Positions 381 to 60,433 of a stretch of 64,000 nucleotides of DNA are shown one piece after another. The first letter of the stretch is position 1; each line of letters opens with the position of its first letter. Position numbers and translations under genes: made by a program. The stretch is taken from positions 38,502,001 to 38,566,000 of the forward strand of contig OZ024749.1 of the NCBI GenBank assembly GCA_964016885.1, given 5' to 3'. The stretch is from Eledone cirrhosa (taxonomy: Eukaryota). The notes under the pieces were generated by a model. It did not search any database, was not told the origin of the DNA, and saw nothing but the letters and a program-made list of their open reading frames with translations.

Positions 381-1300
381 GTGATGGGTGTTGTGGTTGT
401 TGTGATGCTTGTTGTGGTTGTTGTTGTGGTTGTTGTGGTGGTTGTTGTGGTTGTTGTAGTTGTTGTTGTGATGATTGTGGTGGTAGTTGTGGTGGCTGTT
501 GTGATGGTTGTTGTGGTTGTTGTGGTGGTTGTAGTTGTTGTTGTGATGATTGTGGTGGTAGTTGTGGTGGCTGTTGTGGTGGTTGTTGTGGTTGTTGTGA
601 TGGTTGTTGTGGTTGTTGTGGTGGTTGTAGTTGTTGTTGTGATGATTGTGGTGGTAGTTGTGGTGGCTGTTGTGATGGTTGTTGTGGTTGTTGTGATGGT
701 TGTTGTGGTTGTTGTGGTGGTTGTAGTTGTTGTTGTGATGATTGTGGTCGTAGTTGTGGTGGCTGTTGTGGTGGTTGTTGTGGTTGTTGTGATGGTTGTT
801 GTGGTTGTTGTGGTGGTTGTAGTTGTTGTTGTGATTATTGTGGTGGTAGTTGTGGTGGCTGTTGTGATGGTTGTTGTGGTTGTTGTGGTTGTTGTGGTGG
901 TTGTAGTTGTTGTTGTGATGATTGTGGTGGTAGTTGTGGTGGCTGTTGTGATGGTTGTTGTGGTTGTTGTGGTGGTTGTAGTTATTGTTGTGATTATTGT
1001 GGTGGTAGTTGTGGTGGCTGTTGAGATGGTGGTTGTAGTATTTTGGTGGTTGTAGTTGTTGTTGTGATGGTTGTGATGGTTGCTGTAGTGGCTGTTGTGT
1101 TGTGATAGTTGATGTGGTGGTTGTTGTGGTATTTGTTGTGATGGCTGTTGTAGTCGTTATTCTGGTGGTTGTAATGGTGGTGGTTGTGGTAATGGTTTCA
1201 TGGTTTTGCTGTGTTTGTGACAGTTGTTGTAATAGTAGGCTATGGCGATTGTTGTGATGATTGTCTGTGGCGACATCTGTAGCGTCTGTAGTAGAAGCTT
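381..1300. repeat. Degenerate GTT/GTG/GAT trinucleotide array with higher-order unit
   Basis: Recurring gttgtggtggttgtagttgttgttgtgatgattgtggtggtagttgtggtggct unit; the poly-Val ORF is a by-product. Confidence 0.9.
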
Positions 1301-2110: not shown

Positions 2111-2554
2111 TGTGTATATATACATATAATATAGACACATATACAGAAACAATATATGTATATAAAGGAACAGGGCGCCTAACAATAAAACACACGAAAT
2201 GCAACTTTGTACGGGGCCAGCTAAACTTACATAATTGTGAACTGTAACAACATTTGACCGAGGTTCCTATCATAAAAAACACCAAACACAGTATCGTAGG
2301 AGGTCAGATACAGCTACATAATTGTGAGTGGATATTTCATTTTCATACTAGCAGAAGACATGAACGACGTCACAATCAGAATAACAAATATAGATAAGTA
2401 TCTCGCTTATGTGCTACTGGGTATGACCGGATATAGAGTATGATCTGATACATTGTCCAATAAGATTTCCTCCTAATCGCTTGACCAGTGAATCTATTCG
2501 TGTCACTTCTACACCAAAGACCGTCCACTGGACCACATTAACTCTTCTCAAAAT

Positions 2555-2626
<72 letters not shown>

Positions 2627-4228
2627 AAAGTTCTATTTAAATTGTTGGGATACAACAAGCAAATATTTTCATAACTGATATAAAGCACTCAACAAATATT
2701 TGGAGTAAAAATACGATATTAACAAATGGAAACTATATTTATAAAACCATATTTATTTCATTATACATATTTCAAGGACACCAAGTTAAATTATGGTGTG
2801 CTTTCATCAGATAAAATATAATATAGATCAGTTTTATAAATAAATATTTACATACCCTTAAAGAATGCAACCATTACTGTTGGAAGCTCCCGGATAGTGG
2901 AGTTGAAGCTTAATTATATTATTATTAGTATTGGATATTTTTATTTTAAAAATAAGCCGTTGGGTTACGGAGAAAGAGAAAGATAAAGAAGGAGAGAGAG
3001 AAAAAAGAGAGAGAGAGACCAAAAACAACAGAGAGAGAAAGATATATATAGAGCGAGAGGAGACAGAGAGAAGGGGAGAGAACGAAAAACTCTAAGTCAT
3101 ATCTTGTTGAGTTAACTTAACAATTGGGATGAAATGAATAAATAAAATTAGAAATGTTAATAATCATGAATGGAATATACATATATAATACGAGAAATTA
3201 ACCATTGTTTAAATATGATTAGATGTTTAGTTAATCATTTAAAAATTGAGATCAATATATTAAAAATTGGGATCTATATATTAAGAAATCCATATATTAC
3301 TAGAGAACTACATATCATATAACACGTATACACACGCAAACATACATATAAATATATTTACACACTTATAAAATACATATACATATCTAACTACGTATAT
3401 AATATATACACACAAAACATAAAGGATTCTTTAATTTAATTTAAGATATAGGAATCTTATAAAATGTTATAATTGTTAAGATATTAAAGGAAATTTTATG
3501 TTATACACACGTTATGTTATTAAACAAAATTTTTTTATATAAGTTTTATAAGATTACCTGTTATGTATTTATGGCTGTTATTATATGTCTATCTGTCACG
3601 AATCTTTGGATAATCACTATACATAAGTGCAATCAAATTGTATGGATATACACGCATATGTATATACACAATTCCCACATATACATATATATATATGTAC
3701 CCTCAACCAATAGGTAGATACGCATCACGTATACATATACATACAGACAGACATATATTCATAAAAACGCATAAAACATATGTACATGTATGTCAATACA
3801 CACATATACATATATACTCACATATAGAGAGAAGTATATATAAATACAGTACATAGTATAATTGAGTAGATAAAATACAAAAGAATTATATTACAATTTG
3901 AAAATATAATTATAAGCAATATAACTTTAAAAACCATACAATTTAAAAATATTATAGAATATTTTAAGTTATAATTTCAAAATAATAGTATGTTTAATAG
4001 ATTTAGTATAGAAATTTATTTTACGTATATTTAACTTAAAATTTTTTCTCCTTTCAAGAGCTCTCAAATATTTCTCTAGAATAGTTTATTATATTTATAC
4101 TTAATTATATTTAAGAAGAAAAGTTATTTTTACTTGAGTGTATAATTAGTCAAAAAAAAAAGATGAAGGGATCTAATGATTTATCGACAGGTTCAATATA
4201 TTAATAAAATTAATTAATTAATTATATA

Positions 4229-4420
4229 CTACATTTTAAATTTATATTTATATTTAAACGTTGAGTTTAATCTATGTCTGCAGCAACTGAATAAATTATT
4301 TCTTAAGTTCAGGGAATTTTTGGTCTTTAATATAAAGAATATTTCCTCTATACAAAGATCGCAATATTCTGAAGAGGACTTAAAAGGAGTAGCTTTTGAA
4401 ATAATATTCCAAACCAACGA
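4229..4420 (-). pseudogene. C-terminal fragment of PLE GIY-YIG endonuclease
   Basis: WNIISKATPF..CDLCIEE..I..LNLRNNLFSCCRH matches the W-I..C-x2-C..E..LN-R..CRH tail recalled for PLE GIY-YIG proteins. Confidence 0.8.
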
Positions 4421-4870
4421 ATATTTGAGAGCTTTTGAAAGGAGAAAATATTTCCTATTTCTTATTTTTTTATTGTTTTTTTATTGTTCTGATAGCTTCT
4501 CCTATTTTCGAAAGTTTATCCTTTCAAAATTTTAAGTTAAATATACGTAAAATAAATTTCTATACTAAATCTATTAAACATACTATTATTTTGAAATTAT
4601 AACTTAAAATATTCTATAATATTTTTAAATTGTATGGTTTTTAAAGTTATATTGCTTATAATTATATTTCCAAATTGTAATATAATTCTTTTGTATTTTA
4701 TCTACTCAATTATACTATGTACTGTATTTATATATACTTCTCTCTATATGTGAGTATATATGTATATGTGTGCATTGACATACATGTACATATGTTTTAT
4801 GCGTTTTTATGAATGTATGTCTGTCTGTATGTATATGTATACGTGATGCGTATCTACCTATTGTTTGAGG

Positions 4871-4947
<77 letters not shown>

Positions 4948-5832
4948 CGAATTGTGTATATACATATGCGTGTATATCCATACAATTTGATTGCACTTAT
5001 GTATAGTGATTATCCAAAGATTCGTAACAGATAGACATATAATAACAGCCATAAATACATAACAGGTAATCTTATAAAACTTATATAAAAAAAAATTTTG
5101 TTTAATAACATAACGTGTGTATAACATAAAATTTCCTTTAATATCTTAACAATTATAACATTTTATAAGATTCCTATATCTTAAATTAAATTAAAGAATC
5201 CTTTATGTTTTGTGTGTATATATTATATACGTAGTTAGATATGTATATGTATTTTATAAGTGTGTATATATATTTATATGTATTTTTGCGTGTGTATACG
5301 TGTTATATGATATGTAGTTCTCTAGTAATATATGGATTTCTTAATATATAGATCCCAATTTTTAATATATTGATCTCAATTTTTAAATGATTAACTAAAC
5401 ATCTAATCATATTTAAACAATGGTTAATTTCTCATATTATATGTATATTCCATTCATGATTATTAACATTTCTAATTTTATTTATTCATTTCATCCCAAT
5501 TGTTAAGTTAACTCAACAAGATATGACTTAGAGTTTTTGATTCTCTCCCCTTCTCTCTGTCTCCTCTCGCTCTATATATATCTTTCTCTCTCTGTTGTTT
5601 TGGTCTCTCTCTCTCTCTCTCTTTTTCTCTCTCTCTCTCTCTTTTTTCTCTCTCTCCTTCTTTATCTTTCTCTTTCTCCGTAACCCAACGGCTTATTTTC
5701 AAAATAAAAATATCCAATACTAATAATAATATAATTAAGCTTCAACTCCACTATCCGGGAGCTTCCAACAGTAATGGTTGCATTCTTTAAGGGTATGTAA
5801 ATATTTATTTATAAAACTGATCTATATTATAT

Positions 5833-5890
5833 TTTATCTGATGAAAGCACACCATAATTTAACTTGGTGTCCTTGAAATATGTATAATGA
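5833..5890 (+). ncRNA. HHR-like motif, family C (mirror copy ~2760-2815, minus strand)
   Basis: CTGATGA 5838-5844; stem II aagcacacca/tggtgtcctt (9/10); GAAA 5875-5878; stems I and III ambiguous. Confidence 0.5.
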
Positions 5891-5959
5891 AATAAATATA
5901 GTTTTATAAATATAGTTTCCATTTGTTAATAATATCGTATATATATATATATATATATA

Positions 5960-6479
<520 letters not shown>

Positions 6480-6555
6480 TATATTTTTCTTCCATAGTGC
6501 GGCTACCCATATGTTTATATATGTTTATATATGGTTTCATATACACCTATATATA

Positions 6556-14289: not shown

Positions 14290-14579
14290 AGTCATTTAAC
14301 TGGAAAGTTTGTTGAAATGAATATCAAGCCGCTACCTGCAGCCTCAGATATTCAGGACGTATCGGAGTGTTCCAAAAAGCGGGGCTGAACTAATCATCTT
14401 TAACCATCCTTGGAAACTCTTTGAGATAGTACCTAGTGCGCCTATGACAATCGGGACGACCTTGACTTCATGGCAGTTCCAAATCCTTTCTACCTCCCAC
14501 TTTAAGTCCTGATATCGGTTAATTTTTTCTTGCACTCTCGTGTCAAATAGGCAGGCTACATCTACAATCAGGCACGATC

Positions 14580-14580
<1 letters not shown>
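14290..14580 (-). pseudogene. R4/Dong-like LINE restriction-like endonuclease C-terminus
   Basis: CLIVDVAC..EKINRYQDLKWEVERIW..VVPIVIGALGTI. Confidence 0.85.
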
Positions 14581-14643
<63 letters not shown>

Positions 14644-14645
14644 AA

Positions 14646-14837
14646 GACGGTGGATTGTCAGTATCGGTAGAGGGTCGGACGCCATGCTTTCCAGCATAGT
14701 TACGTCCCTTAACGATCTGAGTTCAAATCCCACTGAGGTTAACTTTGCCTTTCATCCTTACGAGGTCGATAAAATAAAGTACCAGTAATGCACTGGGTAA
14801 TTGCTGGCCTTGTGTCAAAAGTAGAAACAATTATTAT
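14646..14837 (+). mobile_element. SINE family 1, full length
   Basis: Matches consensus. Confidence 0.92.
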
Positions 14838-17982: not shown

Positions 17983-18373
17983 GCTCGCTCTCTCTCTCTC
18001 TCTCTATGTATATATATATATACATATTTATAACACAAGTAAGATGTAACTATGTTTGTGTCAAATACTTATAAACACACAGGCATCTTAAATATATACA
18101 CACTTTATATACGCACACATACACATATATATATACATGTATGTGTGTGTATATATATATATATATATATGTGTATATATGTATACACACACATATATAT
18201 ATACATAGAAATGTATATATAGTTATGAGACATTTAAAGGGTAGAAGAAAAGTTGTAATTTTAACACAGATCATATAAAAGAAATTAAGTTGATAGACAT
18301 GTACGTACATAGTTCATTCTACACAATTATTTCGATAAAAAGTTTTTCTTTAAACACAGAATTAGACAAATGT

Positions 18374-18976
18374 AATAATTATTTCTACTTATGGCACAAG
18401 GCCAGCAATTACCCAGTGCATTACTGGTACTTTATTTTATCGACCCCGTAAGGATGAAAGGCAAAGTTAACCTCGGCGGGATTTGAACTCAGTCCGTAAA
18501 GGGACGTAACTGTGCTGCAAAGCATGGCGTCCGACCCTCTACCGATACTGCCAATTCACCATGTAATAATTGTTTCTACTTTTGGCACAAGGCCAGCAAT
18601 TACCCAGTAGATTACTGGTACTTTATTTTATCGACCCCATAAGGATGAAAGGCAAAGTTAACCTCTGCGGGATTTGAACTCAGAATGGCAAGGGGCGTAA
18701 CTCTATGCGTCAAAGCATGGCGTCCGACCCTCTACCGATACTGCCAATTCACCGCCCTAATTCACCATGTAATAATGGTTTCTTATAAGGCACAAGGCCA
18801 GCAATTTGGGGGAGGGGAAAGTCGATTAGATGGAATCCACTTAATTACTGGTACTTTATTTTATCGACCCCCGTAAGCATGAAAGGCAAAGCTAACCTCG
18901 GCGGGATTTGAACTCAGAACGTAAATGGCCATACATTTCAAAGCGTGTTGTCTGCGGCCCTACCGATACTGCCAAT
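18374..18976 (-). mobile_element. Three head-to-tail SINE family 1 copies
   Basis: Copies at ~18374-18560, 18564-18756 and 18771-18976. Confidence 0.92.
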
Positions 18977-31529: not shown

Positions 31530-33500
31530 TATATAGACACATGCATACATACATGTATGTGTAAATATATACATACATAGACACAATCATGTGTACATGC
31601 ATACATACATACACACAATCATACATACATACACACCTACACAATCATAGATACATACACACAATCATACATACACACATACACAATCATACATACACAC
31701 AATCATACATACATGTGCGTATGCTTTATACATACACACACACACACATACATATATATAGACATACGCATACATATATTTATATATGTGTATGTATATA
31801 CACATGTATACATACCTAGACACACAATCATACGTACATACATACATAAAAGCATACATACAGTCAAGCATACATACACGATCGTACATACATACATACA
31901 CGATCATATATTTATATATGTGTATGTGTATGTGTATACACATGTATACATACCTAGACACACAATCATACGTACATACATATATACACACAATCATACA
32001 TACATACATAAATACATACATACAGTCAAGCATACATACAGTCAAGCATACATACATACACGATCGTACATACATACATACACGATCGTACATACATACA
32101 TTGATGAGGAGTTTACAAATCCAGTATCCAAGATACACCTTTAGCTTCATACCCATCATTATTGGAGCTACGGGTTATATACCAACCCGCTTAGACCAAA
32201 GTATGACTGAACTTGGATTTGCGGACAAAAAGCGCAGCTCCCTAATTCATAGTCTACAAATGGCTGCGATAGCTGGCACCTTCGAAATTTGCAAAACATT
32301 CTTGCGATTCAAGGGATGACAATTTCTTTTCTTTTACAACCTTGCCACCAGGAAGGTGGCCGGTCAAAAAAATATACTCGAAATTAAGAGAAAGAGACAC
32401 ATACATACATACATACATACATACATACATACATACATACATACATACATACATACATACATACATACACATGTGCAGATACAAAGCATATACACATGCA
32501 CACATACAACTAAAAACATACACATCCACACATACAATAACATCCATATCTACACATGCATGCATACATATCTACCTAGTTGATGTTGTGTAAATTCCAA
32601 TGAGAGAGTCTTGTGTCTATGTTAGAAACCGACTCTCTCTCTATTGGTAAAAATTTGTGACATTATAAAACCAGAAGAACATACATACATACATACATAC
32701 ATACATACATACATACATACATACATGCATACATATAGTCATGCTTACATACATACATGATCTTACATACATACATAAATACATACATACATACACACAT
32801 AAATACATAAATACATACATACATACACGATCGTACATACATACATACATACATAAATACATACATACAGTCATACATAACGTACATACATACATACATA
32901 AATACATACATACAGTCATACATAAATACATACTTACATAAATACATACATACAGTCATACATACATACATACATAAATACATACATACATACTCACATA
33001 CATACATAAATACATACATACATACAGTCAAGCATACATACGTACACGATCGTACATACATACATACATACATACATACATACATAAATACATACATACA
33101 GTCATACATACATACACGATCTTACATACATACATACATACATAAATACATACATACATACTCACATACATACATAAATACATACATACATACATACATA
33201 CAGTCAAGCATACATACATACACGATCGCACATACATACATACATAAATACATACATACAGTCATACATACATACACGATCTTACATACATACATACATA
33301 AATACATACATACATACATACATACATAAATACATACATACATACTCACATACATACATAAATACATACATACATACAGTCAAGCATACATACATACACG
33401 ATCTTACATACATACATACATAAATACATACATACATACATACAGTCATACATACACGATCTTACATACATACATACATACATACATATATACATACATA
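31530..33500. repeat. (TACA)n-based degenerate satellite hosting a LINE insertion
   Basis: Seen directly. Confidence 0.9.
32101..32396 (+). mobile_element. R4/Dong-like LINE 3' end in (TACA)n
   Basis: Near-identical to 46578-46872; FIPIIIGATGYIP..LQMAAIAGT..ICK. Confidence 0.85.
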
Positions 33501-34781: not shown

Positions 34782-35127
34782 TATACGATATTAACAAATG
34801 GAAACTATATTTATAAAACCATATTTATTTCATTATACATATTTCAAGGACACCAAGTTAAATTATGGTGTGCTTTGATCAGATAAAATATAATATAGAG
34901 CAGTTTTATAAATAAATATTGACATACCCTTAAAGAATGCAACCATTTCTGTTGTAAGCTCCCGGATAGTGTCCTTGAAATATGTATAATGAAATAAATA
35001 TGATTTTATAAATATAGTTTCCATTTGTTAATATCGTATTTTTACTCCAATTATTTGTTTAGTGTTTTATATCAGTTATAAAAAATATTTGCTTGTTGTA
35101 TCCCAACAATTTAAATAGAACTTTTAC

Positions 35128-35128
<1 letters not shown>
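34782..35128 (+). mobile_element. Fold-back element, family C
   Basis: Nearly identical to 2624-2900; inverted arm 34782-34970, sense arm plus tail 34969-35128. Confidence 0.88.
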
Positions 35129-35944: not shown

Positions 35945-35975
35945 TGTAATGTGTGTGTATGTATAGATACAAATG

Positions 35976-36006
<31 letters not shown>

Positions 36007-36041
36007 TACATGTGTGTATGTATAGATACAAATGTATGTGA

Positions 36042-36074
<33 letters not shown>

Positions 36075-36146
36075 GTGTATGTATATATACAAATGTATGT
36101 GAATATATATATATATATTACATGTGTGTGTGTATAGATACAAATG

Positions 36147-36179
<33 letters not shown>

Positions 36180-36207
36180 TACATGTGTGTATATATAGAT
36201 ACAAATG

Positions 36208-36248
<41 letters not shown>

Positions 36249-36323
36249 CATGTGTGTATATATAGATACAAATGTATGTGTATATATATATATATTACAT
36301 GTGTGTGTGTATAGATACAAATG

Positions 36324-36354
<31 letters not shown>

Positions 36355-36494
36355 TACATGTGTGTGTGTATAGATACAAATGTATGTGTATATATATATA
36401 TATATATATATTTATTTTACATGTGTGTATGTATAGATACAAATGTATGTGTATATATATATATATTACATGTGTGTGTGTATAGATACAAATG

Positions 36495-36527
<33 letters not shown>

Positions 36528-36667
36528 TACATGTGTGTGTGTATAGATACAAATGTATGTGTATATATATATATATATTTATTTTACATGTGTGTATGTA
36601 TAGATACAAATGTATGTGAATATATATATATATATTACATGTGTGTATGTATAGATACAAATGTATG

Positions 36668-36698
<31 letters not shown>

Positions 36699-36755
36699 TA
36701 CATGTGTGTATGTATAGATACAAATGTATGTGAATATATATATATTTATTTTACA
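35945..36755. repeat. Minisatellite: fixed ~35-nt core plus variable (TA)n
   Basis: ttacatgtgtgtrtgtatagatacaaatgtatgtg repeated roughly 15 times. Confidence 0.92.
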
Positions 36756-46230: not shown

Positions 46231-46341
46231 ATATATACATATGTACATATATATACACATGCATACGCACATACATACATACATACATACATACATACAT
46301 ACATACATACATACATACATACATACATACATACATACATA

Positions 46342-46872
46342 CGCACTTCGGAAAACAAAATTAACAACAAACGAGGAAGAATATATTGAGACAGATGGCA
46401 CTAAGGAATACTGGTGGAACCTGAAAATAAAAACTGCCACCAAATTAAAGCACAACCGGCCTGATATTGTAGTTTGGGACCACACATTGAAAACGTGTTC
46501 TGTTGTGGAGATCAGCTGCCCACTTGATGTAAACGTTGTCAGAAAAATACAGGAGAAGGAGGACATCTACGGACCATTGATGAGGAGTTTACAAATCCAG
46601 TATCCAAGATACACCTTTAGCTTCATACCCATCATTATTGGTGCTACGGGTTATATACCAACCCGCTTGGACCAAAGTATGACTGAACTTGGATTTGCGG
46701 ACAAAAAGCGCAGCTCCCTAATTCATAGTCTACAAATGGCTGCGATAGCTGGCACCTTCAAAATTTGCAAAATATTCTTGCGATTCAAGGGATGACAATT
46801 TCTTTTCTTTTACAACCTTGCCACCAGGAAGGTGGCCGGTCAAAAAAATATACTCAAAATTAAGAGAAAGAG
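46342..46872 (+). pseudogene. R4/Dong-like LINE: restriction-like endonuclease domain plus 3' UTR, 5'-truncated
   Basis: Open frame EYWWN..HNRPDIVVWD..VVEISCP..EKEDIY..IPIIIGATG (RPD..E..K-Y motif); flanked by (TACA)n. Confidence 0.9.
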
Positions 46873-59448: not shown

Positions 59449-59793
59449 TTGGCCGCCCTCTCATCTCTCGGTATTTTCAGCCCCATGGATTGTGTCTATT
59501 ATATTCCTTTGTTAAATTTCGAATTTCGAATACCTGAGGATGTCACCGGATTCATACACCAGTCCAGCCTCTTGTTATTTTATAATTATTTTATTATATA
59601 TATATATATATAATAAAATAATTATAAAATAACAAGAGGCTGGACTGGTGTATGAATCCGGTGACATCCTCAGGTATTCGAAATTCGAAATTTAACAAAG
59701 GAATATAATAGACACAATCCATGGGGCTGAAAATACCGAGAGATGAGAGGGCGGCCAAAGATTTAGCAGTTTCCAGTCCGGTTGGCCGCCCTC
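59448..59793. mobile_element. Family D tail-to-tail palindrome (~310 bp)
   Basis: 59448-59759 self-complementary around (TA)n at ~59603. Confidence 0.88.
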
Positions 59794-59870
59794 AATACAA
59801 TCATAACTATATACATGCATACATAGATACATAGATACATCGGTAAGTAGGTACATACATACATACATAC

Positions 59871-60433
59871 ATGGTGGTGGCTGCCAACTCGTTTTTGAGT
59901 ACGGCCACTACTTTATATCCATGTAGGAGAACCCCCACGGATGCGCTAAACGAGTGTGACTTTTTAGTCCAGCCAGCGACTTGAAAACTCTGGCACAAAC
60001 ACCACACTTTTGACAATTATTGACACATAGTGCTGGGCCCATGGTACCATCTGACGACAAGTGCAGAGAGATCTCCAGATATAAAGCAATGCCTGTGCTG
60101 TGAAGCTTTTATAGTGATCAAAGGCACTGCACAAAGCCAGTCCCACTCTCTTAACCAAGATGATATTTACCAAAAAGAAGAACAAGTCAACATCATTGGA
60201 TACCATCAGGGTTGCAGGTGTTATATCAGAGTTTTCCTTCTCCTAGAATTCTGCCTTGACAAAGGCTAAGGGGTCATCTCTCCCGGTGATTTTGGATGGC
60301 CATTGACTCTTAAGAGCTCCTTTGCCCTTTGACAGGTTTTGTTTTTAGTCCTGCAGGATGTCCAAAGTCACCCTCCTCACCAAGAAACCTTGGTGGGGTT
60401 GCCAGTTTAGTCGCCAACGACCCGACCATGAGA
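59871..60433 (-). mobile_element. (TATG)n-tailed RTE-related non-autonomous element
   Basis: Near-identical to 58580-59140. Confidence 0.78.

What the first reader, a model, noticed from the sequence alone, without database searches (positions are those of the whole stretch)
2624..5940. 3.3-kb palindrome enclosing a Penelope-type GIY-YIG C-terminus
Arms 2711-4071 and 4421-5940 are near-identical reverse complements, differing mainly in microsatellite length and a ~76-nt indel. The 350-nt unique core encodes WNII..CDLC..E..LN.R..CRH. Each arm carries an HHR-like core near its outer end. Its ends match the short elements at 5960-6372 and 34782-35128, so it links the small non-coding fold-backs to an autonomous PLE with an unusually long (~1.5 kb), microsatellite-containing 3' region. 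A read-through transcript would form ~1.3 kb of dsRNA, a potential ADAR or siRNA substrate (inference).
Basis: partly seen in the sequence, partly recalled or inferred. Interest (0 to 1): 0.72.

Follow-up and report, generated by a model that had tools for sequence, protein, structure and literature searches.

The report
Head-to-head truncated Penelope-like retrotransposon insertion
This 3.3-kb mirror-image stretch is a broken, back-to-back pair of copies of an abundant Penelope-like jumping gene sitting in a TA repeat, a known insertion shape; its relatives nearly always carry the extra 'tail' on exactly one arm, which likely means both ends of the cut DNA were extended from two different start points on the element's RNA.

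Summary
The palindrome is real (arms 2711-4071 and 4421-5940, 15 substitutions in 1358 aligned bases). It is two 5'-truncated copies of one Hydra-clade Penelope-like element (PLE) joined head to head in (TA)n. The peptide is the last 61 residues of a 742-aa RT-endonuclease ORF that is open at other loci; this copy is not autonomous. The family has over 8,000 exact ends in the genome, and 46 of 80 sampled relatives also have an inverted arm. Inverted copies, a one-sided tail, hammerheads and TA targeting are published PLE traits. New in detail: a family unit of about 4 kb (published complete Hydra families are at most 2.73 kb), an 87-nt tail, and a near-strict rule of one tailed and one tail-less arm, with the tail-less arm the longer in 20 of 28. 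That argues against simple cDNA fold-back and for priming from both ends of the cut. The small fold-backs are independent short truncations of the same family. dsRNA and editing are untested; reads did not bridge the junction. The scan already noted this insertion type and rule on other DNA of this genome.

The parts
2585..2623 (.). Left (TA)n target flank, next to (CT)14
2624..2710 (-). 87-nt tail, on the left arm only; equals the start of the 5' leader of a full unit; holds a small bulged hairpin at 2687-2706
2711..4071 (-). Left arm: 3' non-coding region of the longer copy, with a private 79-nt deletion near 4044
2746..2826 (-). Type I hammerhead motif of the left arm (predicted cut between 2762 and 2761)
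   Evidence: activity untested
4072..4228 (-). Unpaired core: start of the 3' non-coding region
4229..4426 (-). ORF remnant: last 61 codons of the RT-endonuclease ORF (4414-4232) and stop codon; 5'-truncated at the junction
4421..4426 (.). Head-to-head junction; AATATT is shared by the ORF side and the left-arm template; unique in the genome
   Evidence: the script scored only 1 nt against a relative
4421..5940 (+). Right arm: inverted, shorter 5'-truncated copy, tail-less end; keeps the 79-nt segment at about 4449-4527
5822..5902 (+). Type I hammerhead motif of the right arm (predicted cut after 5886)
   Evidence: activity untested
5941..5958 (.). Right (TA)n flank, shared with the neighbouring fold-back
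5959..6371 (.). Separate, more diverged short fold-back of the family: tail-less left arm, tailed right arm
34783..35128 (.). Separate short fold-back of the same subfamily: tail-less left arm with a core change (CTGATCA), tailed right arm with half a hammerhead

Best explanation
It is a dead insertion of an abundant Hydra-clade Penelope-like retrotransposon, made of two 5'-truncated copies joined head to head in a TA microsatellite, and it likely arose when both ends of the cut target primed reverse transcription at two different fixed points of the element's RNA. Shown: identity of the family, the truncation points, the TA flanks, the two fixed 3' ends 87 nt apart, and one end of each kind per palindrome. 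Inferred: the endonuclease cuts both strands of (TA)n; one end starts copying at the upstream point (no tail), the other at the downstream point (tail), each at a short TA-like stretch a few bases before a small bulged hairpin; each cDNA stops at a random place; host end joining fuses the two cDNA ends, here over 6 shared bases. The arms then drifted apart by about 1%, and the left arm lost 79 nt near the centre. The short fold-backs are the same event with earlier stops. No host function is needed to explain it.
For: Family: at least 150 matches at 89-98%; 742-aa open frames in L057 and L061 with RWR, DKT, YRDD, CxCX5C, CxxC..E..N..CxH and no CCHH, the Hydra traits of PMC8557442 section 11 and alike by eye to its Hydra alignment. 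Ends: 4711 exact tail-less and 3321 exact tailed ends beside TA; 64 of 67 3' flanks TA-rich. One tail per palindrome: set 1, 28 of 29 loci with both ends classed (Fisher p=3e-6 without the window), the exception L078 having inverted flanks too; set 2, 20 of 38 tailed ends have a tail-less inverted partner and none a fully tailed one (read by eye); set 3, 13 of 14 head-to-head pairs on 103 Mb of C1, the exception resolving into two ordinary fold-backs. The tail-less arm is longer in 20 of 28, which a fold-back of a tailed cDNA cannot give. Same template: an arm's best match is its own partner in 21 of 27, tie in 2; both window arms share 6 positions absent from six relatives. Junctions are one-offs, and one that recurs three times has the tail on opposite arms. 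In vitro precedent: a PLE cuts and extends both strands and starts at two internal sites that bound the tail (PMC11167929).
Against: No read or contig bridges this junction. 34 of 80 relatives show no adjacent inverted arm, so two-armed insertion is not obligatory. In 4 of 27 loci another copy matches the arm slightly better than its partner. Junction overlap is modest: 17 of 58 have 3 or more shared bases against 13% of random joins, and 27 of 58 have extra bases instead; a stricter first script was noisy. L114's arm ends about 12-15 nt into the tail. In vitro the two strands showed no difference in start site, so why each insertion uses one of each is unexplained. Arm similarity could partly be gene conversion.
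Confidence: 0.8

Rival explanations
1. Same family, but the second arm comes from self-priming or fold-back (one cDNA, or an antisense template, copied back on itself), with the endonuclease trimming the tail from one end during resolution.
For: Self-priming on an antisense template is proposed in PMC3846280 and endonuclease-mediated resolution for the tail in PMC8557442. Arms are usually each other's best match. The window itself fits: the tailed arm is the longer one.
Against: The tail-less arm is longer in 20 of 28; this version then needs both arms made with tails and either one trimmed. Both ends map to fixed points before two like hairpins, and RT start sites bound the tail in vitro.
Confidence: 0.13
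2. The palindrome is an assembly or library fold-back artefact.
For: No bridging read was found; L078 shows an inversion running into its flanks, so such structures exist in this assembly.
Against: Arms differ by 15 substitutions spread over both arms, 7 gaps and the tail; the inversion stops at the element's fixed ends with unrelated flanks; 46 of 80 relatives have inverted arms.
Confidence: 0.03
3. The long palindrome, or the short fold-backs, move as a non-autonomous unit, or the locus is kept as a host dsRNA source.
For: The junction of the 34783 element occurs three times in the genome; a read-through RNA would pair over about 1.36 kb.
Against: The main junction is unique; the three recurring junctions carry the tail on opposite arms and different variants; junctions differ from locus to locus; no A-to-G excess between arms; none of 100 nearby open frames reached a Pfam cut-off.
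Confidence: 0.04

Closest known systems
Hydra clade of C-terminal EN+ PLEs (Craig et al. 2021, PMC8557442), e.g. Penelope-13_HM and Hydra-1_Obim
   Same: Protein motifs, hammerhead near the 3' end, (TA)n target; Penelope-13_HM is listed with a 5'-truncated inverted copy at its 5' end.
   Different: Unit about 4 kb with a 1.1-2.2 kb 3' region, against at most 2729 bp for complete families; hammerhead and protein differ from Hydra-1_Obim; RWR for RWK; tail 87 nt against the 30-40 nt quoted for PLEs.
Poseidon_Ac of the green anole (Frangieh et al. 2024, PMC11167929)
   Same: Two fixed RT start points bounding a tail; AT-rich target; hammerhead just upstream.
   Different: Other clade; start points lie inside the ORF there and in the 5' leader here; the one-of-each rule per insertion is not stated in the two parts of the text that I read.
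Adineta vaga Penelope families (Arkhipova et al. 2013, PMC3846280)
   Same: Head-to-head inverted pLTRs, tail on one of them, junction microhomology; Pen1_Av has a 0.9-1.5 kb spacer before the 3' pLTR.
   Different: Pen1_Av spacers are unrelated captured host DNA; here the spacer is homologous across subfamilies (66-94%). Few copies there, thousands here.
Twin priming of LINE-1 (recalled, no call)
   Same: Both target strands prime cDNA; ends join over microhomology.
   Different: L1 inverts an adjacent, non-overlapping part; here both cDNAs start near the 3' end, so the arms overlap as a palindrome.

Membership tests
Hydra-clade PLE | Single ORF, RT with C-terminal GIY-YIG-type endonuclease | tested here: met
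   742-aa frames with YRDD and VVY...YVG, R, E, N; read by motif, since Pfam and PDB sequence searches gave no significant hit. The window holds only the last 61 aa.
Hydra-clade PLE | RWK motif and DKG changed to DKT | tested here: met
   RIRWRA (R for K; RWK in the 9 homologs aligned) and KSDKT
Hydra-clade PLE | CxCX5C linker; CCHH absent; CxxC and CxH around the conserved E and N | tested here: met
   CNCRNKSNC; one Cys between VVY and YVG; CDLC..E..N..CRH
Hydra-clade PLE | Hammerhead motif near the 3' end | tested here: met
   Core and three stems; 99 of 134 terminal copies have the exact core with one of two self-complementary stem III variants; pairs kept in 55-58 of 58 distinct sequences except one C-C mismatch. 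Rfam lists no hammerhead. Cleavage untested.
Hydra-clade PLE | Insertion into (TA)n | tested here: met
   Both window flanks; 64 of 67 3' flanks
Hydra-clade PLE | Generally under 3 kb | tested here: not met
   About 0.15 + 2.23 + 1.67 kb; a descriptive trait in the paper, not a diagnostic one
Hydra-clade PLE | Placement in the Hydra clade on an RT tree with published references | not tested
   Reference sequences were seen only as supplement text and compared by eye
Penelope/Poseidon, Neptune, Nematis | CCHH zinc finger in the endonuclease; DKG motif | tested here: not met
Naiad/Chlamys | N-terminal endonuclease; no canonical hammerhead | tested here: not met
   Endonuclease is C-terminal and a hammerhead motif is present
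Non-LTR retrozyme or other non-autonomous unit | Fixed small unit repeated in tandem or dispersed with the same junction | tested here: not met
   Junctions differ between loci; the one recurrence has opposite tails

The most novel reading that the evidence does not exclude
PLE integration is an asymmetric two-ended reaction: an enzyme pair reads two tandem hairpins on one RNA and obligatorily starts one cDNA before each, so every two-armed insertion has exactly one tail whichever arm is longer. This young, 4-kb Hydra family with open ORFs gives thousands of natural test cases, an arm-divergence clock like LTR dating, and seeds the genome with kilobase hairpins that could feed RNA editing.
Probability: 0.5. 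Interest if true: 0.6.

Novelty: new member of a known kind. Interest (0 to 1): 0.3.

Why it matters
The locus itself is one dead copy among thousands. Its use is as evidence on an open step: PMC8557442 names the formation of tandem/inverted structures as unresolved. The counts here (one tail per palindrome, tail independent of arm length, arms from one template) narrow the models and give a direct in vitro prediction. The family also extends the Hydra clade to 4-kb elements. The scan had already reached the same rule from other loci, so the added value is confirmation in one more family.

Tried and rejected
Rfam on 2500-6500: only microsatellite-driven hits below cut-off, no hammerhead. Pfam on the 61-aa peptide and on two full ORFs: nothing significant; PDB sequence search with alignment A1: nothing. 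Sequencing runs: no RNA holder listed. Contigs and RAD reads of unknown individuals did not bridge the junction, and the opposite-strand joint 4068/4425 is what an ordinary copy gives, so neither for nor against. A generic hammerhead regex missed the window's motifs through a script flaw; energy folding gave stems I and II for the right arm but not the catalytic fold. Exact-match junction scoring was spoiled by later substitutions and was redone with local alignment (4 of 62 unresolved). A-to-I signature between arms: not seen. Host exon nearby: 100 of 202 candidate frames scanned, none at cut-off; the RING hit at 59695-59907 is a (TATG)n read-through; this does not exclude an intron. Sequence look-up in earlier findings: nothing. 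Paper searches for two-ended priming of PLEs listed no paper stating the one-of-each rule; the library lacks most subscription journals, including the 2005-2006 PLE reviews.

Full report
Observation. Self-alignment confirms the palindrome: 1358 aligned bases, 15 substitutions and seven gaps of 79, 52, 26, 3, 2, 2 and 1 nt. The left arm runs 87 nt further (2624-2710). Both flanks are (TA)n. The core encodes 61 residues ending in a stop at 4231-4229.

Family. The peptide gave 150 scored matches of 41,540 candidates, 89-98% identical apart from itself. I fetched 10 kb around 80 of the 150: 60 by rank and 20 chosen mostly for long open frames. L057 and L061 hold 742-aa frames with RWR, DKT, YRDD, a CxCX5C linker, no CCHH, and CxxC and CxH around the conserved E and N. 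These are the Hydra traits in section 11 of PMC8557442, shared with homologs at about 31-48% identity and alike by eye to the paper's alignment. It is not Hydra-1_Obim, whose hammerhead and protein differ. Pfam and PDB gave no significant match, so the domain names rest on motifs; no tree was built. Exact patterns count 4711 tail-less and 3321 tailed ends beside TA, controls 0; the second pattern misses the window's own variant, so these are lower bounds.

Anatomy. A full unit (L061) reads: hammerhead, 87-nt tail, short leader, ORF, long spacer, hammerhead. Stop to tail-less end is 1123-2155 nt, median 1670, n=67, so the unit is about 4 kb; complete Hydra families in File S1 are at most 2729 bp. 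ORFs are 91-100% alike while spacers are 66-94%. The window is thus two sense copies pointing outwards: a left copy truncated in the ORF at about 4426 with tail, and a right copy truncated 158 nt after the stop, without tail. The deletion junction occurs only in the left arm among 119 loci. AATATT at 4421-4426 is shared by the ORF side and the left arm; scored against a relative the overlap was 1 nt.

Hammerhead. Rfam lists none. By direct parsing, 99 of 134 terminal copies have CTGATGA, GAAA and one of two self-complementary stem III variants; 10 more carry changes and 25 did not parse. In 58 distinct 81-nt sequences every pair but one C-C mismatch is kept in 55-58, with a T-A/C-G swap (46/11) in stem II and wobble swaps in stem I. 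Short palindromic helix III and dimer action are described in PMC4209133. Cleavage is untested; in a read-through hairpin the motif would be paired with its antisense copy (inference).

How common is the shape. 46 of 80 relatives have an adjacent inverted arm and 34 do not; the median shorter arm is 385 nt and five are longer than the window's. Inverted 5'-truncated copies and a tail at one end are published (PMC8557442 Fig. 2 legend; Penelope-13_HM; PMC3846280).

One tail per palindrome. Set 1: of 81 loci with the window, 29 had both ends classed; 28 were one tailed plus one tail-less, 1 tail-less twice, 0 tailed twice; left out were 1 tandem, 5 with odd ends and those lacking an end. The exception L078 has inverted flanks as well. 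Set 2: 38 of the 40 best tailed ends (the window and one locus already held were left out): 20 have a tail-less inverted partner, two of them duplicates, none a fully tailed one; L114 ends 12-15 nt into the tail and L105, L109, L115, L130, L132 are unresolved or complex (read by eye). Set 3: among the first 100 and 65 pattern hits on C1, 13 of 14 head-to-head pairs within 10 kb were mixed (p=5e-4), and the fourteenth is two separate mixed fold-backs. The tail-less arm is the longer in 20 of 28.

Template and joint. An arm's best match is its own partner in 21 of 27 loci, tied in 2, beaten by 1-3 bases in 4; 3 short arms were skipped. The window arms share 6 positions against six relatives, and their differences fall on both arms with one A-to-G. 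Junctions show 3 or more shared bases in 17 of 58 (13% in 150 random joins, p=0.001), and extra bases in 27 of 58. The window's junction is unique. The 34783 junction recurs at L141 and L142 with the tail on the other arm, so the short fold-backs are independent events.

Start signal. Following a lead from earlier notes, I found two like bulged hairpins in 12 complete leaders, a few bases past each end, with an A-U/G-C swap between them and a short TA-like stretch at each end. That they direct priming is inference.

Mechanism. In vitro, Poseidon_Ac cuts and extends both strands and starts at two sites bounding the tail. With the counts above, the simplest account is priming from both target ends, one at each site, then end joining. 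Fold-back of one tailed cDNA predicts a tailed arm at least as long as its partner, which fails in 20 of 28. Self-priming with later trimming is not excluded.

Reads and expression. No RNA run was listed; no listed piece bridges the junction. None of 100 of 202 nearby frames reached a Pfam cut-off. dsRNA, editing and siRNA remain untested.

Papers seen. PMC8557442: abstract, introduction, sections 11 and 15, passages, supplement part 2 and passages. PMC11167929: parts 1-2 of 4. PMC3846280, PMC4209133, PMC13282606 and bioRxiv 10.64898/2026.07.22.740005: passages only; supplements not seen, and they could hold tail counts. L1 twin priming is recalled.

Verdict. Real, explained, a new family of a known clade in a known insertion form; the scan noted a like palindrome and the asymmetry rule elsewhere in this genome. 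Interest 0.3.

Noticed in passing
L078 (G000:C4:163295097-163305076): The inversion runs at least 145 nt into both flanks: a secondary inverted duplication or an assembly fold-back.
   Followed up: partly
L141:1001, L142:1001, window 34956: The same fold-back junction at three loci, with the tail on opposite arms: a possible joining hot spot.
   Followed up: yes
L042/L055 and L107/L108: Pairs of loci 14 kb and 50 kb apart with the same element structure, likely local duplications.
   Followed up: no
window 46340-46795 (+), 32145-32319 (+), 14344-14751 (-): Open frames that resemble the C-terminal restriction-like endonuclease of R2/R4-type retrotransposons (motif recalled; Pfam not significant).
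   Followed up: partly
window about 59501-59700: A short palindrome around a TA run with a CTGAGGA motif in each arm, unrelated to this family (seen).
   Followed up: no
window about 59935-60015 (-): A C2H2 zinc-finger-like peptide read by eye, possibly a LINE 3' end.
   Followed up: no
several fetched loci: At least three other hammerhead families with long stem II and palindromic stem III lie near copies of this family.
   Followed up: no
window 381-1190; 18370-18753; 35952-36749: A GTT/GTG minisatellite, a 191-nt tandem pair of a SINE-like repeat, and a 57/171-nt array.
   Followed up: no
L114:8267: Inverted arm ends about 12-15 nt into the tail, at neither fixed end.
   Followed up: partly
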